64,000 nt of DNA from a virus. Shown here one piece after another: positions 2,968 to 48,400 of the stretch. The stretch lies in the IMG/VR virus record IMGVR_UViG_3300035524_000014; one strand, 5' to 3'. The stretch's first letter is position 1, and each line of letters opens with the position of its first letter. Made by a program: the position numbers and the translations under genes. The notes under the pieces are model-generated. The model ran no database searches, was not told the DNA's origin, and saw nothing but the letters and a program-made list of their open reading frames with translations.

Positions 2968-2987
2968 TAATTAATCATATCGGAGAT

Positions 2988-3016: not shown

Positions 3017-3057
3017 GTAATATTATTTCAAACAGCATGTCAAGAAATTTGTTATTC

Positions 3058-3139: not shown

Positions 3140-3247
3140 AGAAATTTAGGTTTAAGGAAATACACGGAATAGATCAAACCTAAAACCATCTATCCGGAAC
3201 GCTTCGTTTTCAGGCTATTGCCACGGTAACTAAGCCTAACCTTTTTT

Positions 3248-4979: not shown

Positions 4980-4981
4980 AT

Positions 4982-5203: not shown

Positions 5204-5217
5204 ATGTTACCCTTACT

Positions 5218-13388: not shown

Positions 13389-13466
13389 AAAAAAAGTTCT
13401 TGACAAAATTCAATAAATATGTAAAGAAGGAGGATCAGCTTGGACTAACGAAGAATAAGGAGTAAT

Positions 13467-20095: not shown

Positions 20096-22687
20096 ATGGG
20101 ATTTTTCACACAAATAAAAAATAATAACCCCGATTGTGGAAATTGTGGGCTTTATAAAGAGTCAAAAAATCCTCAGATCGGGGTTTTCGGCAAAGGCAAA
20201 AAAAAGATTCTTGTTCTTACCAAGGCTCCTACTAAAGAACAGGACGAAAACAATAACCTATTTCTTGGAGGAGCCACTAAACTTTTTGAGCAAGAGTTAA
20301 AAAAAGCAGGAATTGATCTTTATGAAGATTGTTTTGTAACAAGTGCTTTGGGGTGTAGGACTTCTAGAAACGTGGAGGCATCCAAAAAGAACTCTAAACA
20401 ATGCCTACCAAGAATAAAAAAGCATATAGATAAATATAAACCTAATCTCATCATTACTCTTGGAACAGTATCACTTCATCAAATTGCAGGATTTAGAATG
20501 AGTGATATTAACACAGAGGCGTATCAGGGGAAATGTTATCCAGACTATAAATATGATTGTTGGGTAGGACATCTTCCACACCCTGTATCACTTGTTCAAG
20601 AAGATTCACATGGTAATACACTATATGATGATAAGTATTATATGAATTTCTATCGAAGAATGTTGACAAATGTTGCCGGGTATGTTAATAAAAATATTCC
20701 CACTTACCATGATATTGAAAACAAAGTGGAGATTCTTACTTCTTCTAGGGAAATCATAACAGTTCTTAATGATATTATTAAAATATCGCCGTTTAGATAT
20801 AGTTATGACTATGAAACAAATACTGCTAGTTCTTTTCTTCCAGATATTAGAATTGAAACTGTTGCTGTAGCGTATGAAAATGATAGAGTTTTTGCTTTTC
20901 CGTTTGCCCGCAATGGAATGTTCACCAAGTCCCAATACAATGCTGTTAAAAATACATGGGTTGAACTTGTAAGTAATCCTTATATATTGAAGATGTGTCA
21001 TAATATTGGCCTTGAGTATAATTATGACGCCCAGTTTCTAGGCGTAGATCAGGATAATTATTTTGATACGATGGTAGCGTGTCACCAGTTAGACACTACG
21101 CCGGGAACAAAAGGATTGAAATATCAACTTTCTATGCGATATGGAATTGAATCTTACGACGATGATATTTCTATGTATTTGAAACCCCCTTCTATTAACG
21201 AATACAACAATATACATGAAGCTCCGCTGAATAAACTTCTTATATACAATGGAATAGATACGCTTGGTGGCCTGTGGTTGGGAGATGACCTTAGGAAAGA
21301 ATTGAAATACGATTCAAAAAGAAAATATAAACCGAGAAATTGTTGTAATCTATATCAAGACGGATATAAGGCTCTTTGCCGTTCTCATAGAAAGGGAGTT
21401 GATCTAGATATTGATTTCCTTAAAAAAGAAGAACAGGAACTTATTGAACTTAGAGACTCATTAATTGCTAAGGTTCATGGGTCTAAAGAAGGTAGATTAT
21501 ATAAAGAAAAAACTGGACATAATCTGGAAATTACCAATAACAATGAAATTGGTAAACTTGTGTATGAGTATCTAGGAATTGAACCTACACGAAGAACTCC
21601 TACAGGAAAAGGACAAGCAACAAAAGAAGCTCTTGAGGAACTTAACCTCCCATTCATTAACGATCTTCTGGAAGCAAAGAAGATTGAAAAGCACCGAAAT
21701 GATTTTGTACATAAATTGATTAATGTAAATGTGAATGGTAGAATTTACCCAGAGATTGGTGTTTCTCATGCTAGAAGCGGCAGGTCTAACGCGTTTGGCT
21801 CCGTGAACATTCAACAAATTCCAAAGAGAGATAAACGCGGAAAAAGGGTAAGAAAAGGAATTGTCGCCCCCGAAGGATATAGAATTGTTTGTCGAGATTA
21901 TGGGAGTGTTGAGGTGTCCACTAACGCTTGTTGTTCTAATGATCCTGTTCTAAAACAATATATTAGAGATGGAGCAGACCCTCACCACGACAATGCTAAA
22001 TTGGCCTATTTAATGTCAGACGATCAGGTGTCAAAAGAAATTAGGCAATTTACGAAACAGGCATGGACATTTCTCTTGTTCTATAAGGGGTATCCCACTT
22101 CTAGTGCAAAGAGAATAATTGATAATTGGGAGCATTTGAAGACTAACGAGGGCTTTACATTAAGAGAACACTTTGCTATTAACGGAATTAAGGATTTCTT
22201 TGCACTTCGGGACCATTGTATTGAAAAAGCAGATGAAATGTGGGAACGTTTTAGTGTCTTCCACGAATATCAAGGAAACAAAGAAAAGGAGTATTTTGAA
22301 AAAGGATACGTTGAAAACCCAATGGGATTTCGCAGGGGAAATTGGATTACACCCAACATGTCTGTGAACTCACCGGCTCAAGGACTCGGCTTCCAGTGGG
22401 TATTAGATTCTTATGTTGCTATTGATGATTGGTTTAGAAAAGAGAACATGAAGTCTTACTTGCCGTTCCAAATCCATGATGATATTGTGCATATAGTAGC
22501 AGAGGATGAATTACAGGAAGTTTTGGAGCATGTTCATTACCTTATGACAAAAAGGCTTGAAAATAAATATGATCACATTGACATTCCATTAACAGTAGAC
22601 ACAGAAGTAAGTGAAGTTGGTGGAAGTTGGTACGATGTTAAGCCGTGGGTTCGTGGAGAAGACGGTGTTTGGAAACCGGAAGTTTAA
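20096..22687 (+). CDS. Family A DNA polymerase with 3'-5' exonuclease and an N-terminal family-4-UDG-like Fe-S domain
   Basis: UDG-like region: CGNCG, GCRT, QCLP, HPVS. Exo motifs: YDYETN, HNIGLEYNYD, YNGID. Pol motifs: A CRDYGSVEVS, B RQFTKQAWTFLLFYKG, C FQIHDDIV. Confidence 0.9.
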   Translation: MGFFTQIKNNNPDCGNCGLYKESKNPQIGVFGKGKKKILVLTKAPTKEQDENNNLFLGGATKLFEQELKKAGIDLYEDCFVTSALGCRTSRNVEASKKNSKQCLPRIKKHIDKYKPNLIITLGTVSLHQIAGFRMSDINTEAYQGKCYPDYKYDCWVGHLPHPVSLVQEDSHGNTLYDDKYYMNFYRRMLTNVAGYVNKNIPTYHDIENKVEILTSSREIITVLNDIIKISPFRYSYDYETNTASSFLPDIRIETVAVAYENDRVFAFPFARNGMFTKSQYNAVKNTWVELVSNPYILKMCHNIGLEYNYDAQFLGVDQDNYFDTMVACHQLDTTPGTKGLKYQLSMRYGIESYDDDISMYLKPPSINEYNNIHEAPLNKLLIYNGIDTLGGLWLGDDLRKELKYDSKRKYKPRNCCNLYQDGYKALCRSHRKGVDLDIDFLKKEEQELIELRDSLIAKVHGSKEGRLYKEKTGHNLEITNNNEIGKLVYEYLGIEPTRRTPTGKGQATKEALEELNLPFINDLLEAKKIEKHRNDFVHKLINVNVNGRIYPEIGVSHARSGRSNAFGSVNIQQIPKRDKRGKRVRKGIVAPEGYRIVCRDYGSVEVSTNACCSNDPVLKQYIRDGADPHHDNAKLAYLMSDDQVSKEIRQFTKQAWTFLLFYKGYPTSSAKRIIDNWEHLKTNEGFTLREHFAINGIKDFFALRDHCIEKADEMWERFSVFHEYQGNKEKEYFEKGYVENPMGFRRGNWITPNMSVNSPAQGLGFQWVLDSYVAIDDWFRKENMKSYLPFQIHDDIVHIVAEDELQEVLEHVHYLMTKRLENKYDHIDIPLTVDTEVSEVGGSWYDVKPWVRGEDGVWKPEV

Positions 22688-37413: not shown

Positions 37414-37459
37414 TTAATTGTCTTTATTTAACCTACTAATTATCTATAAAGGAATTTCT

Positions 37460-39292
37460 ATGACTAATCGGACTGAAGTTAGAATTGATGCTCGTAAAAT
37501 TATAAATGAATACATGGAGGACGGAGATGTAGCGAAAGAAAATGCTAACCAGAATAAAGGTCCGTCTGGACTTCTTATGGCCGTAGGTAGTGAAGGACTT
37601 AGGCGCAATACTCTGAAGGAAATGGTAGAAGAAGGATTTGGGGAGTTGGTAGAAATGCACAATAAAGGAAAGGTGCATCTCCACGATCTAGGGATGGGCA
37701 CCCATACCCCCTACTGCTGTGGTAACTCTCTTCCTGATCTTTTGAATAATGGTATAGAAGTTGGTATTAAAGCTGCTCCTGCAAAACATTTTAATTCTGC
37801 TATTAATCATATGGTTAATTTCATTGGGAGCATGTCTAATGATTATTCAGGCGCACAAGCATTTAACGGGGTTGATACCTATCTAGCTCCATATGCTTAT
37901 AAACGATATCTTGATTTTAAAAAAAGCGGATGTGCTCCTGCAACTGCTTTCAAGCTCACAAGAGAAGAAGTTTATCAAGCGATTCAGAATTTTGTATTTC
38001 ATTTGAATTTTAATACCAGATATGGCTCACAACCCCCCTTCGGGAATATTACTCTTGATATTACCGTACCGCCAGATATGAAAGATCAAGTTGCTATGGT
38101 CGCAGGAAAGCCTATCAAAGAATTTTATGACTACACAGTTGACGGGGTTCGTGTAAATAATCACACCCACGCTGATCTTTGGGAATGGCAACGTCTTGTT
38201 GCTGAAGCCTTTATTGATACTTTTAATGAGGGAGATGCTAATGGGGTTGGTTTTACTTTCCCTGTTTTGACTCTTAATGTTGAAGATACTTTCTTTGATC
38301 ACCCTCTTACAGATAAGATTTGTGAGTTTACCGCGAAGTATGGTATTCCTTTTTTCCAGAACTTTGTAAATGGTGTAGGCGGCGGGGAAAAACTTAGTCC
38401 ACAGGATACTCGCGCTCTTTGCTGTAGGCTGAGTTTGTCTCTTAAAGATATTGCAAAATCTACAGGCGGTCTTTTTGGTAATAGTGATGGAACGGGCAGT
38501 CTTGTTGTTGTGACCGTAAACCTTCCCTATCTGGCATGTGAATCTAGGGGAGATATTAAGCGTTTCTATAAAGACTTGTATGCAACCATGGAAAAGATCA
38601 AAGAATACCATATTTGGAAACGTGGAAAAGTAGTAGACGCCTATAATAAGGGTTTTCTCGCTCTTTCTAAAAAAGCTCTTCCTAAAGGTTACGACACTTT
38701 CTTTACTACGGTTGGATTTATTGGTACGTGGGAATGTGTAGAAATGCTCACTAAGGATGAGCAATCTCTTCTCACAAAGGAGGGTCTTGCCCTAGGAAAA
38801 GATATTCTTCAAGGAATGGTTGATAAAACTAAGTCTTGGATGGAAGAATATAAAATGCTTTGGAACGTGGAAGAGACTCCTGCGGAAAGTGCTTCTTATA
38901 AACTTGCTAAGAAGTCTCTGAAACAATTCCCTAACATTGTTCATCGTGGTCTTAAAAAAGCACCATATTTTACTAATGGATGTAATATTCCGGTTGAGTT
39001 TCAAGATGATCTCTCTCAAGTTCTTAAAGTTCGCACAGTGCTACAGCCTATTCCAACTGGTGGAACGGCAACTCACTTCTATATTGGTGAAGAGTGGTCC
39101 GTGGAACAAACAAAGGAATTTATCAGGATGATTTGTAATACACCTATTCCTTATTTTTCTATCTCTACAGTGTATTCTATTTGTCCTATTTGTGGGTATC
39201 ACGTAGGAGCACACTCTGTATGTCCAAATAATCATACAGAAGAAGAAATTAATGAATTGAGAAAAACAAACCCCGAACTTATTATTGAGTAG
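37460..39292 (+). CDS. nrdD: Anaerobic ribonucleoside-triphosphate reductase large fragment (NrdD without the glycyl-radical segment)
   Basis: Thiyl-radical loop ALCCRLSLSL and C-terminal zinc site CPICG...CPNNH. No RxxGY motif follows. AAGGA lies 6 nt before ATG 37460; the ORF-track start at 37418 is a TTG. Confidence 0.85.
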   Translation: MTNRTEVRIDARKIINEYMEDGDVAKENANQNKGPSGLLMAVGSEGLRRNTLKEMVEEGFGELVEMHNKGKVHLHDLGMGTHTPYCCGNSLPDLLNNGIEVGIKAAPAKHFNSAINHMVNFIGSMSNDYSGAQAFNGVDTYLAPYAYKRYLDFKKSGCAPATAFKLTREEVYQAIQNFVFHLNFNTRYGSQPPFGNITLDITVPPDMKDQVAMVAGKPIKEFYDYTVDGVRVNNHTHADLWEWQRLVAEAFIDTFNEGDANGVGFTFPVLTLNVEDTFFDHPLTDKICEFTAKYGIPFFQNFVNGVGGGEKLSPQDTRALCCRLSLSLKDIAKSTGGLFGNSDGTGSLVVVTVNLPYLACESRGDIKRFYKDLYATMEKIKEYHIWKRGKVVDAYNKGFLALSKKALPKGYDTFFTTVGFIGTWECVEMLTKDEQSLLTKEGLALGKDILQGMVDKTKSWMEEYKMLWNVEETPAESASYKLAKKSLKQFPNIVHRGLKKAPYFTNGCNIPVEFQDDLSQVLKVRTVLQPIPTGGTATHFYIGEEWSVEQTKEFIRMICNTPIPYFSISTVYSICPICGYHVGAHSVCPNNHTEEEINELRKTNPELIIE

Positions 39293-39295
39293 GCT

Positions 39296-39847
39296 ATGTC
39301 AGATAAGACCATTTATTCATATTGCACCGGGATGGTGGACTTTCCTAATAAATATGCGTTTACGATTTATTTTAGTGGGTGTAATATGGATTGTTCGTTC
39401 TGCCACAATAAACACATTCTAACCTCTGATGCTAATTATTCATTTGAAGAAATATATGAGGAGATAAAGGCGTTAAATAAAATTGTTCCTGATATTGGGG
39501 TTGTTCTTTCAGGAGGGGAACCTACCTGTAATCGTGATTTTGAAAAAGCTCTTAATGCTTTTGAGGACTACCCGCTTTCCTTGCATACAAACGGAATGAA
39601 CATTGTGCCGGAATATGAAGGCAATATTGTTCTTGGATTGAAACCGTTTAACACGCGAACATATATAAAAACAATATCTAACTTTCTAATATATCATGCA
39701 GATTTTTCCGATACTTACTATAGGGAGGTTCGATATGTAACAGGAGTTGATGATGTTGAGTATGGTAAAGTTATCACTGAATTGCAACCTATTATTGAAA
39801 AAACAAATTGGAATCTTTGTAGTGTAGAAGATTCTCGAAAGGAGTAA
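39296..39847 (+). CDS. nrdG: Anaerobic RNR activating enzyme (radical SAM)
   Basis: FSGCNMDCSFCHN (CxxxCxxC) and VVLSGGEPT. Confidence 0.8.
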   Translation: MSDKTIYSYCTGMVDFPNKYAFTIYFSGCNMDCSFCHNKHILTSDANYSFEEIYEEIKALNKIVPDIGVVLSGGEPTCNRDFEKALNAFEDYPLSLHTNGMNIVPEYEGNIVLGLKPFNTRTYIKTISNFLIYHADFSDTYYREVRYVTGVDDVEYGKVITELQPIIEKTNWNLCSVEDSRKE

Positions 39848-39851
39848 TGCT

Positions 39852-39980
39852 ATGAAAGTTAAATGCAAGACCTATACTAAGATTGTTGGGTACTGCCGTC
39901 CTGTTGATAACTGGAATGTGGGTAAGAAGCAAGAGTTCAAGGATCGTAAGTTCCTTTCTATGAAGGGAAGCTCTATGTAA
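39852..39980 (+). CDS. Stand-alone 42-aa glycyl-radical peptide corresponding to the NrdD C-terminus
   Basis: AAGGAG lies 8 nt before ATG 39852. MKVKCKTYTKIVGYCRPVDNWNVGKKQEFKDRKFLSMKGSSM* matches the NrdD C-terminal consensus R(I/V)xGY..P...(F/W)N.GK..E...R. Confidence 0.75.
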   Translation: MKVKCKTYTKIVGYCRPVDNWNVGKKQEFKDRKFLSMKGSSM

Positions 39981-39989
39981 AGTAAACAA

Positions 39990-40020
39990 AGAGGGGAGAA
40001 GTAAAACTCCCCTCTTTTTA
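39990..40020 (+). terminator. Intrinsic terminator after the nrd operon
   Basis: AGAGGGGAG-aagtaaaa-CTCCCCTCT followed by TTTTAAAT. Confidence 0.75.
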
Positions 40021-40035
40021 AATAGGGATTAGTGT

Positions 40036-40242
40036 ATGGGAAAGACGTATAGAAATAAAGATTACACGCTGTTTGGTGGAATTGGGGATGGTAAAGACGG
40101 AAGCACCCTTTCCTCAAAAAAGGCATATAGAGAATATAAGGAAATGCGCCGAAGAAAAGAACGAAGAAAGGAAAAACAACTCATGCGTGAAGGAAAGGAT
40201 ATTCCTGTTTCTAAAAAAGATGATAAATATTGGTGGTGGTGA
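40036..40242 (+). CDS. Small highly basic protein
   Basis: A 68-aa ORF containing KEMRRRKERRKEKQLMREGK and ending WWW. Confidence 0.5.
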   Translation: MGKTYRNKDYTLFGGIGDGKDGSTLSSKKAYREYKEMRRRKERRKEKQLMREGKDIPVSKKDDKYWWW

Positions 40243-40862
40243 TGAGTAAAACTTTCAGAGTAGAAGTAGAGAAAGTAACAAGCAGGGAATTGGCACAAAG
40301 AGCATGTGGGGCAACAATAGATGCACATTCAAATATCACACTGGATAGACTTTATCAATGTATGCACTCACCAATGCGTACACAGATTTTCTATGTTTCT
40401 CTATATGACATTCCTTCTTATGTGGCAATGCATCTTGTTCGTCATGTTACTATCGTTCCTTTTGTCAAATCCAATAGGTCAGATCGTAGAAAAAAGAATG
40501 AAGATAAACTTCCGGTAGTAATTGACACCTATGATGATCTTATTGATACTGCGCGAAATATTCCCGTAAGAATGGATTTTATATGCAACGCCGAAGCTAT
40601 GCTCAATATGTCCTATAAAAGGCTTTGTTATAAATCCTCACGCGATACCAGGTGGGTTATGAACGCAATTAGAACTGAGGTACAAAGGGTTGATTATGAC
40701 TTGGCCTATCGAATGGTCCCTCAGTGCATCAAAAAACGAAATTGTGAAGAATTAAAAACTTGTGGGTATTTTGGAAAGTTTCTTAACAAACGCCCTGAAT
40801 TATGTTCTAAGGAGTCATTATTGGATGTAAATAGTTTTTTCAAAGCATATAATCAAGGGTAA
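40242..40862 (+). CDS. ThyX-like (flavin-dependent thymidylate synthase fold) protein with a divergent signature
   Basis: HSPMRTQIFYVSLYDIPSYVAMHLVRHVTIVPFVKSNRSDR parallels the ThyX core (..H.S..E....F.i..iSr....qlvRHR..S...S.R), but RHRxxS is replaced here by RHVTIV. Confidence 0.45.
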   Translation: MSKTFRVEVEKVTSRELAQRACGATIDAHSNITLDRLYQCMHSPMRTQIFYVSLYDIPSYVAMHLVRHVTIVPFVKSNRSDRRKKNEDKLPVVIDTYDDLIDTARNIPVRMDFICNAEAMLNMSYKRLCYKSSRDTRWVMNAIRTEVQRVDYDLAYRMVPQCIKKRNCEELKTCGYFGKFLNKRPELCSKESLLDVNSFFKAYNQG

Positions 40863-40867
40863 TAAAG

Positions 40868-40897
40868 AAACCCCCTTTCGTTAAAGAGAGGGGGTTT
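40868..40897. terminator. Bidirectional hairpin terminator between convergent modules
   Basis: AAACCCCCT-ttcgttaaagag-AGGGGGTTT, flanked by A/T runs. It sits between the plus-strand stop at 40862 and the minus-strand stop at 40924. Confidence 0.7.
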
Positions 40898-40923
40898 ATA
40901 ATAAGGTAGGTAGTCGGTTTAAT

Positions 40924-41259
40924 TTAGGTAGCAGGAATCTGACTTCTAACAGTCAACCTACCTTCAATAGGAATAGTAATATTAGATAAATTATCAGTCA
41001 AGTTAATTTGATATAGATATGAGCTTGCGGTAAGACTATCCCACACAGGATCGCCGTTTGCAATAGTCACGGAAACGTTATAGTCCCCCGTGCCGTCTAA
41101 ACCTGTTCCATCAATACTTGCTACATTTTCATAAGCAGTAGTACCAATCACCATTTTCACAGAGGAATATCCGGTTAAATCAATCAAAGACCCCGCATCA
41201 TTTCTAACTCCAAAAGTCAACTCAGCATCGGTATTTCTATATACACTTTTAAGAGACAT
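40924..41259 (-). CDS. Hypothetical beta-rich (Ig-like?) virion-associated protein
   Basis: A 111-aa ORF, Thr/Ser/Gly-rich, at the end of the late operon. Confidence 0.5.
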   Translation of the reverse strand: MSLKSVYRNTDAELTFGVRNDAGSLIDLTGYSSVKMVIGTTAYENVASIDGTGLDGTGDYNVSVTIANGDPVWDSLTASSYLYQINLTDNLSNITIPIEGRLTVRSQIPAT

Positions 41260-41438
41260 ATGTACACCCCATTTCTATGTGTTACTTTTTCTAACAAGAA
41301 TTGTATCAAACCCCGCACTTGTAGGAACAGCAGTTGAAATTTCTTTGGCCCCAATCTCAATATCTGTTTTTTCATCAAACACAAATGAAACTGCGTTAGG
41401 AAAATAAAAACTGTTCTGAAAACTCTGTACTCGTCTTT

Positions 41439-42140
41439 TTACGTTAAATGTATAATAGGTAGTTTACACTCATGCTCATCTTTAACCCAATAAACGTACT
41501 TATCTAACCTCTCAACAGTGCCTTCTTTCAACCCCTTATCCAATTCTTCCATAAGACCCGTGCAGAGAGCGAAAATATCCCAACCAAAATTAACAACACC
41601 GTCATCATTTCCGTTATCATCATAAATAGGTGTTTTTATCATCTTTAACACAACAGGTTCTCCATCTATATTACCAAATTCAACATAGAGACAACGTTTG
41701 CCAATTTTCTTACAGTGTTCATCTGAGGATCGACATATATCCCCAAAACTATGTTGTTTACCCGTCCCCTCTCGATAGTCATTAATAATATCCATATCTG
41801 TCATACCGATTATATCTGGCATACAGGTTTTTGGCATACGAAAAAAATGAACACATTGGTACTCATTAACAAAGAGGAATCTCCCTTCACTATCTTTTCT
41901 ACAGATCAATCCTCCTGCTGCATGTGCCATATCCGACATAAGTTTATTGTTCTGATATAATTGAGCGTTTGCTTTATGTAGAGCGTCATTTGCTTCTTCA
42001 AGTTGGTGCTTGGTTCGAATAAGTTCTTCTCTCTGCTCTTTTGCCATTTGAAAAGCAGTATCAAAATTTCTCTTTGCCTCAGTTATCTCGTAAGCCGTTT
42101 TTTTAAGTCTATTTTTATGCTCTACCAATAAACCAAACAT
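41439..42140 (-). CDS. Coiled-coil plus PAS-domain protein
   Basis: About 70 aa of N-terminal coiled coil, then GGLICRKDSEGRFLFVNEYQCVHFF....DIIGMTDMDII...GEPVVLKMIKTPIYDDNGNDDGVVNFGWDI, which follows the PAS fold pattern. Confidence 0.6.
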   Translation of the reverse strand: MFGLLVEHKNRLKKTAYEITEAKRNFDTAFQMAKEQREELIRTKHQLEEANDALHKANAQLYQNNKLMSDMAHAAGGLICRKDSEGRFLFVNEYQCVHFFRMPKTCMPDIIGMTDMDIINDYREGTGKQHSFGDICRSSDEHCKKIGKRCLYVEFGNIDGEPVVLKMIKTPIYDDNGNDDGVVNFGWDIFALCTGLMEELDKGLKEGTVERLDKYVYWVKDEHECKLPIIHLT

Positions 42141-42154
42141 ATCTTTCTATCCCC

Positions 42155-42352
42155 CTAACCCATATGTGTTTTAATCAATGCGTGAATTATATAAAAGAAC
42201 GTTCCAACAGTTCCAGACACGAACAACATTAGAACAGCCCATATAATTTTTTGTTGTGCTTTTATATTTGCAACTTCTTCTATCAATGTGTAAACTTTCT
42301 CGGACAGTTTATCATAACTGTCCTTGAGCATATCTAATGGGTCCATGATCAT
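42155..42352 (-). CDS. Small single-pass membrane protein (lysis-associated?)
   Basis: C-terminal TM KIIWAVLMLFVSGTVGTFFYIIHALI. It sits directly after the endolysin gene. Confidence 0.5.
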   Translation of the reverse strand: MIMDPLDMLKDSYDKLSEKVYTLIEEVANIKAQQKIIWAVLMLFVSGTVGTFFYIIHALIKTHMG

Positions 42353-42373
42353 ATCCTACCCCACCACGTTTCG

Positions 42374-42823
42374 CTAAACATTAAATACGTGGATTTTTCC
42401 GTTCAGATGAGTATTAGCGCAATCTATGTGCAACCAAGTAGGTGTATGTTTGATATTTTCCAAACGTCTGACACCAGTATTATACCAATATTCTTCATTA
42501 TCAAGAATGTAATCGTAAACTACATCAACAGAAGAATCAGGAAATTTTAAATCCATTGCACAACCAAACTTGTGCATAGAATATAATGCTCCTATGGAAG
42601 AGTCTACTTCTCGCATACCACTATCTTGATAATTGCCGCCCCATTGCCAATCATTGACAATAATCGGAGAACCAATACCTTCCCTAAGTGTGTCAATAAC
42701 ATTCAAAATAAGAGGATTGAGGAATTTCCAAGAGGAGTCTCCATATCTTTTATAAATATTCGGATTAACTAATTCTTTTATATTGAAGTGCTTAGTCTTC
42801 ATTCTTATCTTCCTTAAGTTCAT
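42374..42823 (-). CDS. Endolysin, M15-family (LAS-type) zinc peptidase
   Basis: SMHKFGCAMD (H-x6-D) and WLHIDC (second His). Confidence 0.8.
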   Translation of the reverse strand: MNLRKIRMKTKHFNIKELVNPNIYKRYGDSSWKFLNPLILNVIDTLREGIGSPIIVNDWQWGGNYQDSGMREVDSSIGALYSMHKFGCAMDLKFPDSSVDVVYDYILDNEEYWYNTGVRRLENIKHTPTWLHIDCANTHLNGKIHVFNV

Positions 42824-43112
42824 TTACCTGAGAGTCATAGGCTTCATATGCGGCTTTTGCTTCTTTTCTTGCCCTCTCCGCTTCAAGAAAATTCTTCCAA
42901 ATAATCATTGCCGATTTCTTTGAGCCTAAATGAACTCCTTCTGGAATCTTTTTATAAACCGGATCAGCGGGAGGCTCAATTCTTTCTGGGACTCTAGTTA
43001 CGGTAATAGTGTGTTCTACTATTTTAGGACCACATCCATTAATAAAGAGTAGGCTAGTTAAAACCAAGAACAGAATTGATTGCTTTAATGTATTCTTCAT
43101 TTGACTTCTCAT
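42792..43112 (-). CDS. o-spanin (outer-membrane lipoprotein)
   Basis: Signal peptide plus lipobox LLFINGC, Pro-rich mature part. The gene overlaps the 3' end of the i-spanin gene. Confidence 0.65.
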   Translation of the reverse strand: MRSQMKNTLKQSILFLVLTSLLFINGCGPKIVEHTITVTRVPERIEPPADPVYKKIPEGVHLGSKKSAMIIWKNFLEAERARKEAKAAYEAYDSQVNELKEDKNED

Positions 43113-43473
43113 CTAATACTCTCAGTTTAGAATCTTCTTTATCTATCTCTCTTGTGTTCTCGCAAATCTCAAGCATTTTATCATATTGCTTTCTATATTC
43201 TTCAAAGTCTTTTTTATATGAAACAATTTGGTTTTGTAGCCCATCAATAACAAGTTGTTTTGTTTCCTGGTCTTGTTCTAGTTGTTTATTTATATTTTTT
43301 ATAGTAGATAGCTCTGATAATTTGTTAGCAAGTTCTACTTTCGTATTACTATGAGAAGTCTTTTCCCACATATAGAGAAAGCCTAGGGAAGCAATAACAA
43401 TCCCCAGCAGGATAACAATTACACCTTGCTTCTTGCCTCCAAAAAATGAAAGGAACGCTGAAAAAATAAACAT
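43054..43473 (-). CDS. i-spanin (N-terminal TM plus coiled coil)
   Basis: TM VIVILLGIVIASLGFLYMW followed by coiled coil. Overlapped architecture with the lipoprotein gene. Confidence 0.65.
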   Translation of the reverse strand: MFIFSAFLSFFGGKKQGVIVILLGIVIASLGFLYMWEKTSHSNTKVELANKLSELSTIKNINKQLEQDQETKQLVIDGLQNQIVSYKKDFEEYRKQYDKMLEICENTREIDKEDSKLRVLDEKSNEEYIKAINSVLGFN

Positions 43474-43478
43474 AAATA

Positions 43479-43787
43479 TTATTCCTTTTTATCAGATGAG
43501 ACATTAAATTCAGGAGGAACTTCTTTATTAGTAGAGTTAGATTTCGTACTACCATTCTTGCTTTCTGCCCATTTTTGTGCGGCCTTACTACCTAAAGCAC
43601 CTAAAATAAGTAATGCAAAGGATTCGTTAAAATCTTGCCACTCATTTACGAATACATAAACGGTCCAGACTAAAATAGGAACTACTATCGCAAACGCGCT
43701 TAAAATACGCATGCTCGATAGGCGGCCTCCGTTATCTGAAAAGACAGAAAATAAAAAATCTGTAATTTTTTTAATTATTTTTTGCAC
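43479..43787 (-). CDS. Holin candidate (two TM helices, charged C-terminus)
   Basis: ILSAFAIVVPILVWTVYVFV and FALLILGALGSKAA. First gene of the lysis cassette. Confidence 0.6.
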   Translation of the reverse strand: MQKIIKKITDFLFSVFSDNGGRLSSMRILSAFAIVVPILVWTVYVFVNEWQDFNESFALLILGALGSKAAQKWAESKNGSTKSNSTNKEVPPEFNVSSDKKE

Positions 43788-43796
43788 ACTACCTCC

Positions 43797-44162
43797 CTAT
43801 GTAGTAATCCCGGCCAGTTCGTCCCGCAGGGCCATCTTCTTTGCCCAGCGATCCTGGTTTTCCTGGGACAGGTCAGCAAGCTTGACAACACCCGCGTCCA
43901 ACAGGTCTTCCACGCTACGCGGCAGAAAGCGGTCCAGCGATTCCAACTCGGCCAGAATTGCTTTCCGCCGGGCCAAGGCTGCTTCAGCGGGAGTCGGCTC
44001 CTGGTACTGCCCTTGCGGTTCGTTGACCCACTCCGCACCAGTCCAGAACCATGCGCCGCTCTGCTCCGGCGGTGTGGTTGTTGTGGCATTGGATGGGCAG
44101 CGTTCGCCTTTGAATGTGCCTAGATATTGGCCAGTTGTTCTATCAAAATAATGGTAGTGCAT
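43797..44162 (-). CDS. Tail fibre assembly chaperone (Tfa-like), GC-rich
   Basis: ATG 44162 overlaps the fibre stop (TAATG). MHYHYFDRTTGQYLG...WFWTGAEWV...AEAALARRKAILAELE.. resembles the Tfa pattern. Position immediately after the fibre gene. Confidence 0.6.
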   Translation of the reverse strand: MHYHYFDRTTGQYLGTFKGERCPSNATTTTPPEQSGAWFWTGAEWVNEPQGQYQEPTPAEAALARRKAILAELESLDRFLPRSVEDLLDAGVVKLADLSQENQDRWAKKMALRDELAGITT

Positions 44163-45475
44163 TATATCTTCCTCACCCACACGGGGGTACGAATTAATTC
44201 AATTTCTGACACGCACACGTAGGTTGAATTATTACTGTCATCGACATAAAACCGAATCTTTGCTGTGTGTACTGTCTGCGGCATGCTGAAGTGACGCGTT
44301 TCGGATGCGGTCCAGCCAGTTTCCTCAGTCACTGTGTGCGCTGTTTGCCAACTTTCACCGTCCCAATATTGCATGCGCCAGCTTTTTGCGGTGCGCTCCG
44401 CGTAGTTAATAGGTGATGTCACTGTATAACTATTAAATGTAAAAGGATATGCGCATTCTAGAACACCGTAAATGCCCGATGTTTGATTGTAAGACCATTC
44501 GTTATAGCTCCCGAGTATACCATCAAACACCCTCCAAAAAGCGCCATAGAACGGTGACGAGCTCTCCGTTGTCGTCCAGTCGCCGGTTGTTGGGCCCGTC
44601 ATGGTCGGGGAGACCACTTCACTAGATAATTCCACATCGAGCGGACTGTCCACCTGCTCCCATCCGGGGGGCACGCTCCCATCGGAGCTAAGCATAATCA
44701 GTCCGGACGGTACTCCGCTTGTCGGCAGAACGCCCGCGACCAGCTTGCCCTCCGCATCCAGCACAGGCACGTTTCCCGGATCCGTCCCCACGTCCCGCAG
44801 AGCAGCAGTGCCAAAACCAGATAACCCAGATCCGTCTCCATCAGGCGCTAAAATTTTTACACCAATATCAGATTCTTTCAAACTAGCAGGGGCATTTAAG
44901 GGAGGTTGCCCATACTCCACACCAATAAGCCCACTATCTATTACTGGTTGCGTTAACGTTACAGTAGTAACATCACTGCCACCATCATATGTGGAGGATG
45001 CGATGTACCCAAAAGCATCACTTGTTTGATACAAGTGAACGGCTCTGTCTGGAACATACAATGTAGTTTTATTTCCACTAACTGTAAAAGTAGAAGAATC
45101 GGAATAGGATACCGCATCCGGCTCAGTCATCCACCACGTCCCAGCAGGAGCATCCCCCTTTAATGTGCCATCATCATTTATAGACACGCTGAGCCTATCA
45201 TTTAATGAATCAGTTACTCCACGAGCGGTAACTATTTCGTTCATAAGAGTAAGAACGGTAATAGATGCCTCTGCCAGATCCTGCCAAGTAGAACCGTTCC
45301 AAATTGTTATTGTATTATTTGTTATATTATAAAAAGGCTGACCTATAGCAGGACTTCCGGGGGCAGACGTACCACTCCATTGTGAACGAATTGCATCAAT
45401 ATTATTATTGATTATTCCATATAAATCACCGAATACAGTAACCCCTGATTGTAATGGTGAAAAGTTTTGTGACAT
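44162..45475 (-). CDS. Tail fibre / receptor-binding protein with a compositionally mosaic C-terminus
   Basis: A 437-aa ORF directly downstream of the J-like gene. The N-terminus is AT-rich like the backbone; from about 45050 leftwards it is GC-rich. Confidence 0.7.
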   Translation of the reverse strand: MSQNFSPLQSGVTVFGDLYGIINNNIDAIRSQWSGTSAPGSPAIGQPFYNITNNTITIWNGSTWQDLAEASITVLTLMNEIVTARGVTDSLNDRLSVSINDDGTLKGDAPAGTWWMTEPDAVSYSDSSTFTVSGNKTTLYVPDRAVHLYQTSDAFGYIASSTYDGGSDVTTVTLTQPVIDSGLIGVEYGQPPLNAPASLKESDIGVKILAPDGDGSGLSGFGTAALRDVGTDPGNVPVLDAEGKLVAGVLPTSGVPSGLIMLSSDGSVPPGWEQVDSPLDVELSSEVVSPTMTGPTTGDWTTTESSSPFYGAFWRVFDGILGSYNEWSYNQTSGIYGVLECAYPFTFNSYTVTSPINYAERTAKSWRMQYWDGESWQTAHTVTEETGWTASETRHFSMPQTVHTAKIRFYVDDSNNSTYVCVSEIELIRTPVWVRKI

Positions 45476-45488
45476 TTATATCTCCTAT

Positions 45489-48400
45489 TTAATACCCAGA
45501 TATTTCCAAGTTAACGTCTCTAGAAATTCCATTTCCATTAGCATCATATACATACACCGTAAATCTATCGCTTTGAATATCTACACTATACGTGGCAAAC
45601 CCTGCTCCTAATACTGTTACACCTACATTATAAGTTACATATATTGTAATCGGAACACTGCTAAGTAGGAACTCTGTTCCTGTATCAGCAATTGTTTGAT
45701 TATACAATTTTTTTACCTTATCGTCAACATCCAGTGCGGTGTAAATAGAAGTAAAATTATAATTAGTGGTAGAAACTCGGATATCTGTTTCTGCCCTAAC
45801 TTGCAGATATCTACTACTGACCGCTGATATATTCGTATAGTCCCCCCAGTCGGAGTATGAAACCCCATCGTCCGAATATCTATATTTTAATTTATATTTA
45901 GCAAGAGATGTTATATTTGTATCTGTGTCTAATGGGAATGTTATGTCTGTTCTACCGTATATAAAAGAAGTATCTGTGGGGTTTGTCAATATTGCATCTT
46001 TTTCCGCGTACTGTCTTAATGTATATGTGGTTTTTGTTCCTAAATCAATAATATCAGAAGTGTATACTCCGTTATCAAAATTTCCATTATATGTAGTGAG
46101 TGTGGGAGTTACATCAGTTTCTGTACTAACATCCGTATCCACCATTCCAGGAATCCATGACACAACATTATTTAAACTGTCATTATACAAGTTATATAAA
46201 GTCGCATCTGGTACATAAACAGGAATCTCTTCTCTATCCACCACAATATTAAGTACATCTGATATATCTATGGACGCTTGAGCAGATGCGGCGTTTACAC
46301 TTTCATTAAAAGTCCTATCTACTGCCTTTATCCAAAAAGTATATGTACCCGATACAGCTGGTTCCCAAGAAAACTCATTTTCAGTAATCCCCGTTGCAAT
46401 ACGTCTACCTCTATTATAATCAACTCCCTCTACAATATTATAACCAAGCCGGTCCACATCAGGAATGTGGTCCCATGTAAGAGTTACGTTTCTCTTAGTG
46501 CCAGTGGCTGAGAAACCAAGAACGTCAGAGGGAGGCGCTTGTTTACCTTTTATATATATGGTTTCAACAAAACGTAAATCGGGAGTATTATAAGGAGACA
46601 CAGATACTTGATATGTTTTACCGACTGTGAATGATTTCTCTATTCTAAATGAATTCTTATTGGCCTGTCCTACCACCTCCCACGGCTTACCTTCTGACTT
46701 CAAGAATACATTCCAAGATAATGCCTTTCCGTTCCATTCCACACTAATTACGGATTTTCCAGTACCATCATTAGCAAATACCCACACTTCTTTGGCAGAC
46801 AGATCAGAAACAAACTTGGATTCCCCGACTTCTACTTCAGGTAATTGTCCAGATAAATCTCCATATATTTCAGGTACATATTCAATCGCAGATATCCTTC
46901 TGGTCATTTCATCACCAGAACGAGTAATAGAAGTCACCCTAAATTTTTTTGTTACATTATTAACTTTACCAAAAGCATATAAATCATTCTTTTCAGGAGT
47001 GGTTTCCCATGTTCCATTTAATGTTAGTTCATCTGTAGTCGTATCTACCGTAGGAGTAACTATATTAACTGTCTCAATAGAATCGTCTATTGATTTTCTT
47101 ACCTGAATTGCATACTGTTCCCCACCCAGCAACTCAACTTTCTCCGGTAATTTAACCCCGTTTGAGGTGGCCGATAATATCCTACCAGAAGAAAGTCCCC
47201 ACTGAGGAACATCATGAGAAACGTCGATAACTTGACCGGGGAAGCACGTGATAGAATCTATTCCCGCCTCAAAAGAAATAGTCTGTGTTAAGTATCTATT
47301 TTGAAGCAGTAATCTTTTACCGTATTTAATAGCCTGTTCTCTATCTACACACCCAACAAGAGTAACACTATTCTTATTAATTACTGTCTGCTCTCTATCA
47401 TAACCACTCTGGTATACTTCAATAATTTGTCTGGAATAATCAAGGGTTTGGTCAAAATACGTAACTTCAACTGCATTAGCTCTATCGGTGGTATCAAGAA
47501 GGGCATTAGAATAAGTACCCTCAATCATATTCCCTTTAGTGTACATGAAATGCTGAACACCTATCTCTTCTTTTTTATCTATAACCACCCCATATTGAGA
47601 GCCTTTATGCACAATAGAACCATGCCCAATAACAGATATAGCATCTAAAATACTACGTAGATCAGAAGAAGCGGATATATAGATATTTACAAATAGTTTA
47701 TTCTCTTCACAATAATCTGCCCATTCTTCAAAATCTTCAAGAAGGAATCTATTTACAGGCTGACTCCCTCCGTAAATGTCGTTGTGAAGAATATCATAAC
47801 ACGCCCACGCCGGATTGTTAGCAGGTTTATCTTCGTATTGCTCTCCCGTCCAAACACGAACATTTTCACGTTCCACCTCCACAGAAACCGTAGGAGCAGA
47901 GCCGCTTAATTGATCAGTAGCGAGTGCTTCCAATCCTAGAAGAGCTGTTCCAGGATAAGTGAAATCATCATAAATAATTTCCTGGAGTGCAGAGAAATAG
48001 GTATCATTGCCGTATCTAGTTCCTGTTGGAGGAGCATTTTTTAACCTAGCACGAACTTCATATTTTCCAGGTTCAACGTCATACACATAATAATCCCTAC
48101 GAATTGGGTCTTGCGTAGCCTCACGTATAATAATATCAGGGTATGCTATCTCAACCTCTTTATAAATAATAGGATCAATTTTATACTGAACAATTTTTTT
48201 TATGTTATGACCCATTGACGTAGGAACATAAGTCCATTTTCTAGTATATCCATAATCTATCCACTTCCAATAGCACTTTTCTTGATCAGAAGCATACCGC
48301 TCCCCCTCCGTGTGTTCATCTCTTACACTTGATCCAGCTTCTACCTCTACCCAACCACCATTACCTGGGTACCCGGCAGACCAATATGGTTCTCCCAAAA

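What the first reader, a model, noticed from the sequence alone, without database searches (positions are those of the whole stretch)
41439..42140. Stand-alone coiled-coil plus PAS-domain protein encoded directly after the lysis cassette
Residues from about 75 to 200 follow the PAS pattern (..GLICRKDSEGRFLFVNEYQ..DIIGMTDMDII.....GEPVVLKMIKTPIYDDNGNDDGVVNFGWDI) with several Cys. There is no kinase, GGDEF or DNA-binding output, only an N-terminal coiled coil. It is co-oriented with, and immediately downstream of, holin - spanins - endolysin - small TM protein. A sensory domain in this position suggests signal-dependent control of lysis timing or of a host process (redox, oxygen or a small ligand), which fits a phage that also carries anaerobic RNR.
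Basis: partly seen in the sequence, partly recalled or inferred. Interest (0 to 1): 0.65.

Follow-up and report, generated by a model that had tools for sequence, protein, structure and literature searches.

The report
Stand-alone PAS sensor in phage lysis cassettes
A small phage protein made of a coiled coil and a ligand-sensing (PAS) domain sits, together with a tiny membrane protein, inside the cell-bursting gene cluster of many unrelated uncultured phages, which suggests that these viruses time host lysis according to an intracellular chemical signal.

Summary
Window 41439..42140 (-) encodes a 233-aa protein with an N-terminal heptad coiled coil (about residues 9-72), a confident PAS fold (78-189) and a conserved 40-residue cap. 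It has no kinase, GGDEF or DNA-binding domain. It is the penultimate gene of the late transcription unit, directly after holin candidate, spanins, endolysin and a 65-aa membrane protein.

It belongs to a large, unnamed family (433 representatives at E<=1e-10) with a fixed-spacing signature, H-x-[FY]-x3-C-x2-[ST]-D-x13-E-x-G-x12-K-x-P. These residues map onto the ligand pocket of VqmA, its closest solved relative. In cells this PAS type feeds kinases, GGDEF-EAL and LuxR outputs. In viral contigs it is almost always a stand-alone protein of about 220 aa.

Across 28 independent viral clusters it lies beside non-homologous endolysins, holins and spanins. In 18 of the 28 it is directly adjacent to a small "cytoplasmic helix plus one TM" protein (Fisher p about 7e-15).

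Best reading (confidence 0.4): a ligand- or redox-gated regulator of lysis timing that acts through that membrane partner. The signal is unknown, and heme, flavin or oxygen sensing is not supported. No cultured phage or paper covers it.

The parts
41439..42140 (-). Gene for the 233-aa coiled-coil + PAS + C-terminal cap protein (stop codon 41439-41441)
   Evidence: ORF and translation; nine homologs; AF2 model; Foldseek; family profile search
41916..42137 (-). Residues 2-75: long N-terminal helix with a continuous heptad pattern (coiled coil, probable dimerisation or docking helix)
   Evidence: AF2 gives a single helix 2-75. Heptad a/d hydrophobic occupancy is 0.78 against 0.24, with a period-3.5 peak. 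Pfam and PDB matches here are coiled-coil proteins only.
41574..41909 (-). Residues 78-189: PAS core carrying the family signature H130-x-F-x3-C136-x2-S-D140-x13-E154-x-G156-x12-K169-x-P171
   Evidence: pLDDT 85-93 and PAS element order; Foldseek PAS hits; signature present in 91 of 159 sequences with fixed spacing; conservation values; mapping onto VqmA pocket residues D71, D85, F99, K101 and F67
41442..41573 (-). Residues 190-233: conserved C-terminal cap (helix 196-206, strands 209-213 and 216-219). In the family it marks the forms in which the module ends the protein.
   Evidence: AF2. Profile matches that run to position 205-228 are nearly always at the protein C-terminus, about 100 of the 150 best representatives.
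42155..42352 (-). 65-aa partner candidate: hydrophilic N-terminal helix (about 39 residues) plus one C-terminal TM segment (residues 40-56). Its stop lies 14 nt upstream of the PAS gene start.
   Evidence: Only weak hits: phrog_689 holin E=0.03, phrog_1193 hemolysin E=0.06. A protein of the same architecture is directly adjacent to the PAS gene in 18 of 28 viral clusters, against 3 of 360 other genes.
42374..42823 (-). Endolysin (149 aa)
   Evidence: phrog_894 endolysin E=1.5e-21; Peptidase_M15_4 E=0.0059
42792..43112 (-). o-spanin candidate (106 aa lipoprotein). It overlaps the 3' end of the i-spanin gene.
   Evidence: Signal-like TM at residues 12-28 and a lipobox-like INGC at residue 24. 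The L009 homolog has a canonical LISC. No family hit.
43054..43473 (-). i-spanin candidate (139 aa; N-terminal TM plus coiled coil)
   Evidence: phrog_739 Rz-like spanin E=3.5e-4; TM at residues 17-33
43479..43787 (-). Holin candidate (102 aa membrane protein), assigned by position and hydropathy only
   Evidence: TM at residues 28-44 plus a second weaker hydrophobic stretch. No Pfam or PHROG family.
40924..41259 (-). 111-aa last gene of the unit (phrog_1084, unknown function)
   Evidence: E=6.6e-6. Syntenic 110-aa gene in L001 and L005.
40871..40894 (.). Bidirectional terminator-like hairpin that ends the late (-) unit and the convergent (+) unit
   Evidence: No terminator-like site between 41260 and 43800 on the minus strand.

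Best explanation
The gene encodes a soluble, probably dimeric cytoplasmic sensor. It has a VqmA-like PAS ligand-binding domain held on a long N-terminal coiled coil and closed by a small C-terminal cap.

It is made late, from the same transcript as the lysis genes. It works as a pair with the adjacent small membrane protein, which has a cytoplasmic N-terminal helix and one C-terminal TM segment (an XhlA-like architecture).

Proposed mechanism: occupancy or chemical state of the PAS pocket (H130, C136, D140, E154, K169, perhaps C96) changes the coiled coil. This changes how the sensor holds the cytoplasmic helix of the membrane partner, which advances or delays holin triggering. Lysis timing would then depend on an intracellular small molecule, metal or thiol-redox state.

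Shown here: the fold, the domain layout, the conserved pocket signature, co-transcription signals, and the conserved neighbourhood with lysis genes and the membrane partner.

Inferred: ligand binding, physical contact with the partner, and any effect on lysis timing.
For: (1) PAS fold with high confidence; the best structural and sequence relatives are VqmA ligand-binding domains, including the phage VP882 receptor.

(2) The fixed-spacing signature is conserved across 159 family members: K82 96%, D140 93%, E154 93%, K169 94%, C136 81%, H130 74%. In the profile alignment D140, E154, position 167 and K169 fall on VqmA D71, D85, F99 and K101, and C136 falls on F67. These are the residues that form the DPO site.

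(3) In cells the same PAS type sits upstream of histidine kinase, GGDEF-EAL and LuxR-HTH outputs, so it is a genuine input domain.

(4) A signature scan of viral contigs returned 42 loci, all of them true family members, forming 28 clusters at 70% identity together with the loci fetched earlier. Nearly all are stand-alone proteins of 205-240 aa.

(5) Their neighbours are lysis genes of unrelated families: Phage_lysozyme, Peptidase_M15_3, Peptidase_M15_4, Peptidase_M23 (sub-threshold), GH108+PG_binding_3, phrog_894, GTA_holin_3TM, holin phrog_3427 and Rz-like spanins.

(6) A co-directional small 'hydrophilic helix + single TM' protein is directly adjacent in 18 of 28 clusters against 3 of 360 other genes (p=7e-15). 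The order of the pair flips between subgroups, but the adjacency is kept.

(7) Fused forms exist with 2-3 N-terminal TM segments, a coiled coil and this module (P0013, P0016, P0026, P0043, P0060 and viral L014), which places the module at the membrane.

(8) In the window there is no terminator between the lysis genes and this gene, intergenic gaps are 14-21 nt, and the unit ends at 40871-40894.

(9) No integrase was seen among the ORFs scanned and the phage has a full replication set, so control of timing is more plausible than a lysis-lysogeny switch.
Against: There is no experimental or structural evidence of contact between the PAS protein and the membrane partner.

The partners share an architecture but no detectable sequence homology beyond close relatives, so they may not be one family.

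The end of a late operon next to lysis genes is a common landing place for accessory 'moron' genes, so position alone does not prove function.

Ten of 28 clusters lack the adjacent partner under my criteria. Some of these are cut contigs or cases missed by my criteria, such as L001 and L044.

ORF calling in the loci was crude (greedy longest ORFs), so the background rate is approximate.

The residue mapping to VqmA rests on weak alignments (E=0.025 and 0.25). With the narrow A1 profile only the KTP...G...D stretch aligns.

In canonical PAS signalling the signal leaves through a C-terminal helix. Here the C-terminus is capped and the only long helix is N-terminal.
Confidence: 0.4

Rival explanations
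1. Host-signalling decoy. The phage protein is a captured input module of host sensor proteins. It forms mixed dimers with host PAS-containing kinases or c-di-GMP enzymes, through its coiled coil and PAS domain, and jams or hijacks host signalling late in infection. Its place near the lysis genes would be incidental.
For: The closest cellular relatives are PAS domains inside histidine kinases, GGDEF-EAL proteins and LuxR regulators from plausible host phyla. The roughly 30 residues of helix before the PAS core are also matched in those sensors, with profile matches starting at position 45-60. The protein has no output domain of its own.
Against: This does not explain the tight, order-flipping adjacency to a small membrane protein, or the recurrence next to unrelated endolysins and holins. 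The C-terminal cap is specific to the terminal forms and absent from the embedded sensor domains. Late expression leaves little time to reprogram the host.
Confidence: 0.2
2. Ligand-independent accessory factor. The PAS fold serves only as a protein-protein interaction scaffold or chaperone for the small membrane protein or the holin (for assembly, stabilisation or fixed-delay antiholin action). No signal is sensed.
For: PAS domains often act as dimerisation modules. No cofactor motif was found. The neighbourhood evidence fits this reading as well as it fits a sensor. Soluble accessory proteins of unknown mechanism are known in lysis cassettes, for example XepA next to xhlA-xhlB-xlyA in PBSX.
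Against: The most conserved residues are polar and lie at pocket positions (H130, C136, D140, E154, K169) rather than on a surface patch. They coincide with the ligand-contacting positions of VqmA. The same PAS type is used as an input domain in cellular sensors.
Confidence: 0.17
3. Two-gene accessory module unrelated to lysis of the producing cell. The PAS protein and membrane protein would form a superinfection-exclusion, abortive-infection or defence/counter-defence pair carried as cargo beside the lysis genes.
For: Small membrane protein plus cytoplasmic partner is a common layout for exclusion systems, and cargo genes cluster at operon ends. One long-form locus has a caspase-domain protein directly upstream (L050).
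Against: I did not scan PADLOC, so there is no similarity evidence either way. The pair lies inside the cassette, between holin-like genes and endolysin genes, in several loci rather than at its edge (L021, L023, L040, L043). It is transcribed with the late genes.
Confidence: 0.08
4. Oxygen or redox sensor using heme, flavin or an Fe-S cluster. Under this reading, lysis would respond to oxic versus anoxic conditions.
For: The window clade has eight Cys and several His, including H142-C143 on the Falpha helix, where FixL and DosP hold heme. DosP and LOV domains are among the fold matches. The phage carries NrdD/NrdG, and cellular relatives come from anoxic habitats.
Against: H142 is conserved in only 36% of the family and C143 in 25%. 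C80 is Trp in 79%. There is no CXXCH, no LOV NCRFLQ and no NreB-type C-x2-C...C-x2-C motif in the sequence. Related phages with the same PAS gene carry a different RNR. The best structural relatives bind a small organic ligand, not a prosthetic group.
Confidence: 0.1

Closest known systems
VqmA quorum-sensing receptors (Vibrio cholerae VqmA; vibriophage VP882 VqmA_Phage; PDB 6ide, 6ugl, 6kju, 7dwm)
   Same: Closest solved structures by fold (Foldseek E about 3e-6 to 6e-5, 15-22% identity) and by sequence profile (7dwm E=0.025). They share a PAS ligand-binding domain with the 'K-T-P' lysine (VqmA K101, which hydrogen-bonds DPO) and acidic pocket residues (D71 and D85 against D140 and E154). VqmA_Phage is also phage-encoded and also couples a sensed small molecule to host killing.
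   Different: VqmA has a C-terminal LuxR-type HTH and acts as a transcription factor (VqmA_Phage activates the antirepressor gene qtip). This protein has no DNA-binding domain, has a long N-terminal coiled coil, and lies in the lysis cassette of a probably virulent phage. The two aromatic residues that stack on DPO (F67, F99) are Cys and Met/Val here, so the ligand is probably different.
Short stand-alone PAS/LOV proteins (PpSB1-LOV, PpSB2-LOV, SBW25-LOV, MrLOVe) and the bipartite CetB (soluble PAS) / CetA (membrane transducer) energy-taxis pair of Campylobacter (CetA/CetB from my own knowledge)
   Same: A PAS core with flanking helices and no fused effector. Short LOV proteins are among the fold matches. 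CetB/CetA is a precedent for a soluble PAS protein that signals through a separate membrane-anchored partner encoded next to it.
   Different: No flavin-binding LOV motif. The partner here is a 60-130 aa single-pass protein without HAMP or MCP domains. The context is a phage lysis cassette, not chemotaxis.
Antiholins and lysis-timing regulators (T4 RI/RIII lysis inhibition, lambda S107, P1 LydB; from my own knowledge)
   Same: Proposed role: accessory proteins encoded with or near holins that set or delay the moment of holin triggering. In T4 they respond to a signal (superinfection).
   Different: No sequence or fold relationship. None of the known ones contains a PAS or any small-molecule sensor domain. 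T4 RI senses in the periplasm, whereas this protein is cytoplasmic. Any function here is inferred.
XhlA / XepA accessory proteins of the PBSX-type lysis cassette (xepA-xhlA-xhlB-xlyA)
   Same: The gene order resembles the commonest viral arrangement found here: soluble accessory protein, small membrane protein, holin, endolysin, all just after the tail genes. My recollection, not checked here, is that XhlA also has the hydrophilic N-terminus plus C-terminal TM layout of the partners. Three of 20 partners hit the 'hemolysin' PHROG phrog_1193, which I take to be XhlA-like, weakly (best E=0.0046).
   Different: The hits are far below significance for family membership. describes XepA as a pentameric dumbbell-shaped assembly, which is unrelated to PAS. 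PBSX is a Gram-positive element, whereas the window phage has spanins and therefore a diderm host.
Pfam PAS_4 (PF08448) input domains of bacterial and archaeal sensor kinases, GGDEF-EAL proteins and LuxR regulators
   Same: Homologous domain. The family profile hits them at E down to about 1e-19, and those domains pass the PAS_4 gathering score. They share the H..F...C...D / E.G / K.P signature.
   Different: In cells the domain is embedded and followed by an output domain, and the match stops at about profile position 190. The phage form is terminal, with a C-terminal cap and only a coiled coil in front.

Membership tests
PAS fold superfamily | Five-stranded antiparallel beta-sheet (A, B, G, H, I) flanked by helices C-alpha to F-alpha, in the order beta-beta-alpha-alpha-alpha-alpha-beta-beta-beta | tested here: met
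   AF2: E78-82, E88-91, H93-99, H107-110, H115-126, H132-146, E150-158, E161-173, E179-189, with pLDDT 85-93. All 45 PDB Foldseek matches with E<=1e-3 are PAS domains.
Pfam PAS_4 (PF08448) | Score at or above the curated gathering threshold (23.1 bits) | tested here: not met
   The window protein scores 17.3 bits, E=0.0057, although it covers profile positions 7-105 of 110. Homolog P0007 carries a precomputed PF08448 hit. Cellular relatives reached by the family profile score 36-41 bits. Membership therefore holds only by transitive homology.
VqmA family (DPO receptor-transcription factors) | C-terminal LuxR-type helix-turn-helix DNA-binding domain after the PAS domain | tested here: not met
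   No HTH or GerE hit. After the PAS core the model has only one helix and two short strands.
VqmA family (DPO receptor-transcription factors) | DPO-binding triad F67, F99, K101 | tested here: not met
   The Lys is kept (K169, 94% in the family). The F67 position is C136 and the F99 position is M167 (Val in 71% of the family). The alignment is weak (E=0.025 and 0.25).
LOV (flavin) PAS domains | Flavin-binding motif GXNCRFLQ with the adduct-forming Cys on E-alpha | tested here: not met
   The motif is absent from the sequence. LOV domains match by fold only, at 13-19% identity.
Heme-b PAS sensors (FixL / DosP type) | Proximal His on the F-alpha helix, conserved in the family, and bound heme | tested here: inconclusive
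   H142 lies on the predicted F-alpha helix (132-146) and is invariant in the 10-member clade, but it is kept in only 36% of the wider family. Heme binding cannot be tested with these tools.
c-type heme PAS or NreB-type Fe-S PAS | CXXCH motif, or four clustered Cys (C-x2-C ... C-x2-C) | tested here: not met
   Neither motif is in the sequence. Of the eight Cys, only C136 and C96 are widely conserved.
Antiholins / holin regulators (functional class) | Binds the holin or its partner and changes the time of lysis | not testable with these tools
   Only context evidence is available: co-transcription with the lysis genes and conserved neighbourhood. There is no PHROG lysis-category hit for the PAS protein itself.
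XhlA-like lysis proteins (for the 65-aa neighbour) | Significant match to the XhlA / 'hemolysin' family; small protein with a hydrophilic N-terminus and a C-terminal TM | tested here: inconclusive
   The architecture is met: TM at residues 40-56 of 65. The family match is not: phrog_1193 E=0.06 for the window protein, best E=0.0046 among 20 partners, and no Pfam hit.

The most novel reading that the evidence does not exclude
The PAS protein and its small membrane partner form a previously unrecognised, widespread two-protein checkpoint in phage lysis cassettes: a cytoplasmic, ligand-gated antiholin or holin activator. Through it, phages of anaerobic and microaerophilic sediment bacteria would read an intracellular metabolite, autoinducer-like molecule or thiol/metal state and set the moment of lysis post-translationally. 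This would be a chemosensory counterpart of T4 lysis inhibition, and a non-transcriptional counterpart of the VP882 VqmA circuit.
Probability: 0.3. Interest if true: 0.85.

Novelty: new variant of a known kind. Interest (0 to 1): 0.68.

Why it matters
Lysis timing sets burst size and phage fitness. Known controls are the holin's intrinsic clock, a few antiholins, and T4's response to superinfection.

A small-molecule sensor domain built into lysis cassettes across many unrelated phages would mean that lysis can be gated by the chemical state of the infected cell. It would also give a concrete, testable pair of proteins to study.

The work also defines a large uncharacterised PAS subfamily with a sharp pocket signature (H-C-D-E-K). 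The same subfamily serves as an input domain for kinases, c-di-GMP enzymes and LuxR regulators in sulfate reducers, Campylobacterota, Bacteroidales and methanogens. Finding its ligand in the small phage protein could therefore clarify hundreds of cellular sensors.

The stand-alone module, at about 230 aa, could also be useful as a ligand-controlled lysis switch.

Tried and rejected
- DNA similarity of window 39000-46000 to 50,697 GenBank phages: no match.
- tblastn of the window protein and of two other family members (from L040 and L015) against the same collection: no match. The family is therefore absent from cultured, annotated phages at this sensitivity.
- Sequence search of the protein and of the narrow profile A1 against PDB: only coiled-coil noise. 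Only the broader profile A2 reached VqmA.
- The search for related loci with the 50-sequence alignment failed in both collections because no stretch was conserved enough. I replaced it with a hand-made degenerate DNA pattern.
- Iterative HMM search for homologs of the 65-aa partner among ORFs of all loci found only the close relatives. Pfam and PHROG scans of 20 partners gave nothing significant. A single partner family is therefore not claimed.
- hhalign of the narrow profile against the VqmA_Phage PAS segment aligned only the H-beta/I-beta stretch, with probability 5%. The fuller residue mapping is marked tentative.
- Two literature searches for PAS proteins in lysis cassettes or phage-encoded PAS sensors found nothing relevant beyond VqmA.
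- Considered and rejected: a hidden DNA-binding domain in the C-terminal 45 residues (the model shows alpha-beta-beta, not an HTH); a transmembrane or secreted protein (no TM or signal segment); a lysis-lysogeny regulator (no integrase among the ORFs scanned and a full replication set; this check was not exhaustive).
- The model coordinates cannot be read, so Cys/His distances and pocket geometry could not be measured.
Full report
**1. The observation**

Window 41439..42140 on the minus strand is an ATG-initiated ORF of 233 aa with a purine-rich ribosome-binding sequence (AGGGGGA) just upstream. It is a real, conserved gene. Nine proteins from metagenomes share 44-95% identity over the full length, and 50 alignment columns are invariant.

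Direct Pfam evidence for PAS is below threshold: PAS_4 at E=0.0057 and 17.3 bits against a gathering score of 23.1, and PAS_9 at E=0.035. Both matches cover almost the whole profile, over residues 78-189.

The AlphaFold2 model built on the ten-sequence alignment has mean pLDDT 73. The low values are confined to the N-terminal helix, and residues 78-220 score 85-93. The element order is beta-beta-alpha-alpha-alpha-alpha-beta-beta-beta, the canonical PAS topology.

Foldseek against the PDB gives 45 matches with E<=1e-3, all of them PAS domains. The list is led by the ligand-binding domains of Vibrio cholerae VqmA and phage VP882 VqmA (E 3e-6 to 6e-5), followed by BvgS, LOV, CitA, MmoS and DosP. 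Among predicted viral structures, the best matches are uncultured-phage proteins labelled 'PAS domain'.

Residues 2-75 are modelled as one helix. Across the alignment, the best heptad register has 78% hydrophobic residues at a/d positions against 24% elsewhere. The periodicity peak is at 3.5 residues and there is no proline. This supports a coiled coil.

No kinase, GGDEF, EAL or DNA-binding domain is detectable.

**2. The surroundings in the window**

Upstream on the same strand lie:
- a 102-aa membrane protein (holin candidate, with no family match);
- an N-terminal-TM coiled-coil protein with a weak Rz-like spanin match (phrog_739, E=3.5e-4);
- an overlapping lipoprotein (o-spanin candidate);
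- an endolysin (phrog_894, E=1.5e-21);
- a 65-aa protein with a hydrophilic N-terminal helix and one C-terminal TM segment.

Gaps between the last genes are 14-21 nt. There is no terminator-like site until a bidirectional hairpin at 40871-40894, beyond one more small gene (111 aa, phrog_1084). The PAS gene is therefore the penultimate gene of the late tail-and-lysis transcription unit.

The spanins imply a diderm host. The phage has NrdD (E=6.7e-124) with a radical-SAM activase, Pol A, primase, clamp loader, UvsX-like recombinase, ligase and SbcCD-like nucleases. No integrase was found among the ORFs scanned. A 98%-identical locus lies on an 83.9-kb IMG/VR contig. No cultured phage is similar at the DNA level.

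**3. The family**

An exhaustive profile search of 1.84 billion representative proteins found 1823 matches at E<=1e-3 and 433 at E<=1e-10. They fall into two classes.

In about 100 of the best 150, the match extends through the C-terminal cap, and the module ends the protein. What precedes it varies:
- a coiled coil only (the majority, 200-260 aa);
- two or three TM segments plus a coiled coil (P0013, P0016, P0026, P0043, P0060);
- GAF and/or PAS domains plus a coiled coil, with no recognised output domain.

In the rest, the match stops at the end of the PAS core, and the domain is embedded in large multi-domain sensors.

The family has a sharp signature with fixed spacing, H-x-[FY]-x3-C-x2-[ST]-D-x13-E-x-G-x12-K-x-P, present in 91 of 159 sequences. 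Conservation mapped onto the window protein is: K82 96%, D83 83%, G112 96%, D115 89%, H130 74%, C136 81%, D140 93%, E154 93%, K169 94%, P171 98%, C96 72%. By contrast, C80 is Trp in 79% of members, and H142, C143, C193 and C225 are specific to the window clade.

**4. The pocket**

With the broader 50-sequence profile, the best PDB sequence match is again VqmA_Phage (7dwm, E=0.025, over the whole PAS domain), followed by V. cholerae VqmA.

In these alignments VqmA D71, D85, F99 and K101 fall on family positions D140, E154, 167 and K169. F67 falls on C136. According to Huang et al. (bioRxiv 10.1101/2019.12.19.881847), DPO is held by stacking on F67 and F99 and by a hydrogen bond to K101, and D71 and D85 are among the binding-site residues they mutated.

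The family's signature therefore coincides with a known PAS ligand pocket. The lysine and the acidic residues are kept, while both aromatic residues are replaced (Cys and Val/Met).

I infer a pocket that binds something, but probably not DPO. This mapping is tentative, because the alignments are weak and the narrow profile supports only the KTP...G...D stretch. No heme, flavin or Fe-S motif is present.

**5. Distribution**

A back-translated DNA pattern of the signature (about 39 bits) found 42 viral contig loci. All were confirmed by the family HMM. Together with the loci fetched earlier they form 28 clusters at 70% identity, and nearly all encode stand-alone proteins of 205-240 aa.

These came from Desulfobacterota, Campylobacterota (Sulfurimonas, Aliarcobacter, Sulfuricurvum), Bacteroidales, methanogens and Betaproteobacteria. 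Nearly all were embedded domains in large proteins. In a Pfam sample of ten, the outputs were HisKA/HATPase (five), GGDEF-EAL (one) and LuxR-type HTH (two); the remaining two were short proteins of 233 and 261 aa with no output domain. Their PAS_4 scores were above threshold.

The domain is thus a genuine input module in cells, and phages carry a capped, stand-alone derivative.

tblastn of three family members against 50,697 GenBank phage records found nothing. Source databases give no names beyond 'PAS domain S-box protein'. Literature searches found nothing on PAS proteins in lysis cassettes.

**6. Conserved neighbourhood: the key new evidence**

In the close relatives the gene order is the same as in the window, but that could be shared ancestry. 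The divergent viral clusters are the real test.

Among 37 co-directional genes at +1 to +3, PHROGs find seven endolysin families, holins and Rz-like spanins. Per-protein checks confirm:
- Phage_lysozyme (L021);
- Peptidase_M15_3 (L024);
- Peptidase_M15_4 (L032, L040);
- Peptidase_M23, sub-threshold (L022);
- GH108+PG_binding_3 (L023);
- GTA_holin_3TM (L023);
- a holin-related protein (L051) and a spanin (L025).

By my per-locus reading, about 10 of 28 clusters have a recognisable endolysin within three genes, drawn from five or six unrelated enzyme families. Several more have holin- or spanin-like membrane proteins.

More specific still is the adjacent small protein. A co-directional protein of 55-135 aa, with at least 25 hydrophilic residues followed by a single TM segment, is directly adjacent in 18 of 28 clusters, against 3 of 360 for all other called genes (Fisher p=7e-15). 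L001 is a false negative, since its gene list shows the 63-aa gene. L044 and L050 have longer versions of the same layout. L039 and L046 are cut right after the PAS gene.

The order of the two genes flips between subgroups. The partner comes first in the window-like group and the PAS gene comes first in the other, but they stay together. In several loci the pair lies between a holin-like gene and the holin and endolysin genes, and the partner is distinct from the recognisable holin (L020, L023, L035, L040, L043).

The partners share an architecture but no detectable homology. The closest analogue is XhlA, a small putative holin reported as essential for lysis, in the PBSX cassette xepA-xhlA-xhlB-xlyA. 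Only weak hits to the 'hemolysin' PHROG support this.

Forms in which TM segments are fused to the coiled coil and PAS module, including one on a 286-kb viral contig, independently place the module at the membrane.

**7. Interpretation**

The best-supported reading is a cytoplasmic sensor paired with a small membrane protein, modulating holin triggering and therefore lysis timing (confidence 0.4).

Shown: the fold, the architecture, the pocket signature, the transcription-unit signals and the conserved neighbourhood. Inferred: ligand binding, contact with the partner and any effect on timing.

Rivals:
- a decoy of host PAS sensors (0.2);
- a ligand-independent scaffold for the membrane protein or the holin (0.17);
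- an exclusion or defence cargo pair (0.08).

Phages whose PAS protein is 73% identical carry, at the syntenic position, an intein-containing RNR of another class.

**8. Comparison and novelty**

The protein works most like a VqmA ligand-binding domain without its DNA-binding half. It is not a VqmA family member, because the HTH is absent and two of the three DPO-contact residues are replaced. It belongs to the PAS superfamily and, by transitive homology, to PAS_4. It has no relationship to known antiholins.

A PAS sensor inside lysis cassettes, coupled to a small membrane protein, is not described in the literature I could search and has no cultured representative. I rate it a new variant of a known kind (a phage-encoded sensor, or a lysis accessory protein) and give it interest 0.68.

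The most novel reading not excluded is a widespread ligand-gated post-translational lysis checkpoint. I give it probability 0.3; it would deserve about 0.85.

Noticed in passing
window 43500-45000: GC-rich island (46-54% GC against a window mean of 38%). It covers the C-terminal part of the tail-fibre gene 44162..45475 (-) and the 127-aa ORF 43797..44180 (-), which corresponds to the Phage_tail_APC-type gene in L001. It looks like a host-recognition module imported from a higher-GC source.
   Followed up: partly
window 37418-39847 versus L001 13307-16360, L002 11674-14727, L005 9271-12324: The window carries NrdD plus a radical-SAM activase. Related phages whose PAS protein is 73% identical carry, at the syntenic place, a 1017-aa RNR_Alpha/Ribonuc_red_lgC protein with an intein (LAGLIDADG/Hom_end). 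So the RNR class has been swapped between close relatives.
   Followed up: partly
window 20096-22687 (+): 863-aa DNA polymerase A with an N-terminal uracil-DNA-glycosylase-superfamily domain (PF03167, E=2.4e-12) fused to the polymerase domain.
   Followed up: no
window 2413-3140 (-): Three clustered tRNA genes: Thr(TGT), Ile(TAT) and Leu(TAA). The Ile gene is unusually long (93 nt) and has the rare TAT anticodon.
   Followed up: no
L045 (IMGVR_UViG_3300009502_000048), genes +1 and +2 after the family member at 13153-13653: A second, ordinary PAS protein (147 aa, PF00989 E=3.7e-9) lies two genes downstream of the family member, with a small coiled-coil/TM gene between them. That makes two PAS proteins flanking one membrane protein.
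   Followed up: partly
L050 2571-4151 (+), directly upstream of the 417-aa long form at 4350-5603: A 526-aa caspase-domain protein (Peptidase_C14, E=9e-32) sits next to a long form of the PAS family on a viral contig. A 173-aa coiled-coil/TM protein follows the PAS gene.
   Followed up: no
Viral loci L018, L020, L021, L023-L025, L032, L035, L040, L043, L049, L051 (group B of the family): A second viral subgroup (motif PDMxWAKD ... NHTFGExCxNSD ... FLExG) replaces the window-type C-terminal cap with a short Cys-rich tail ending in a 'KYEF'-like motif. This is possibly a small metal-binding or docking element.
   Followed up: no
window 40924-41259 (-); L035 gene +3: The 111-aa last gene of the late unit belongs to phrog_1084 (unknown function). 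By my reading, the one phrog_1084 match in the aggregated neighbour scan is the 113-aa gene three positions after the PAS gene in the unrelated locus L035.
   Followed up: no
L018 -2, L020 -1, L025 -1; L035 -1, L043 -1, L046 -1, L051 -1: Two recurrent unannotated neighbour types. One is a 127-152 aa protein with a 'GDCESYC ... GHCIL' Cys/His motif, possibly a papain-like amidase. The other is a 131-200 aa membrane protein with 3-4 TM segments ('NRLRGTG ... GWENQE'). Neither has a significant Pfam or PHROG match.
   Followed up: partly
window 40230-40862 (+): 210-aa ORF convergent with the late unit. It has only a faint ThyX (PF02511) hit (E=0.17) and no PHROG match.
   Followed up: no
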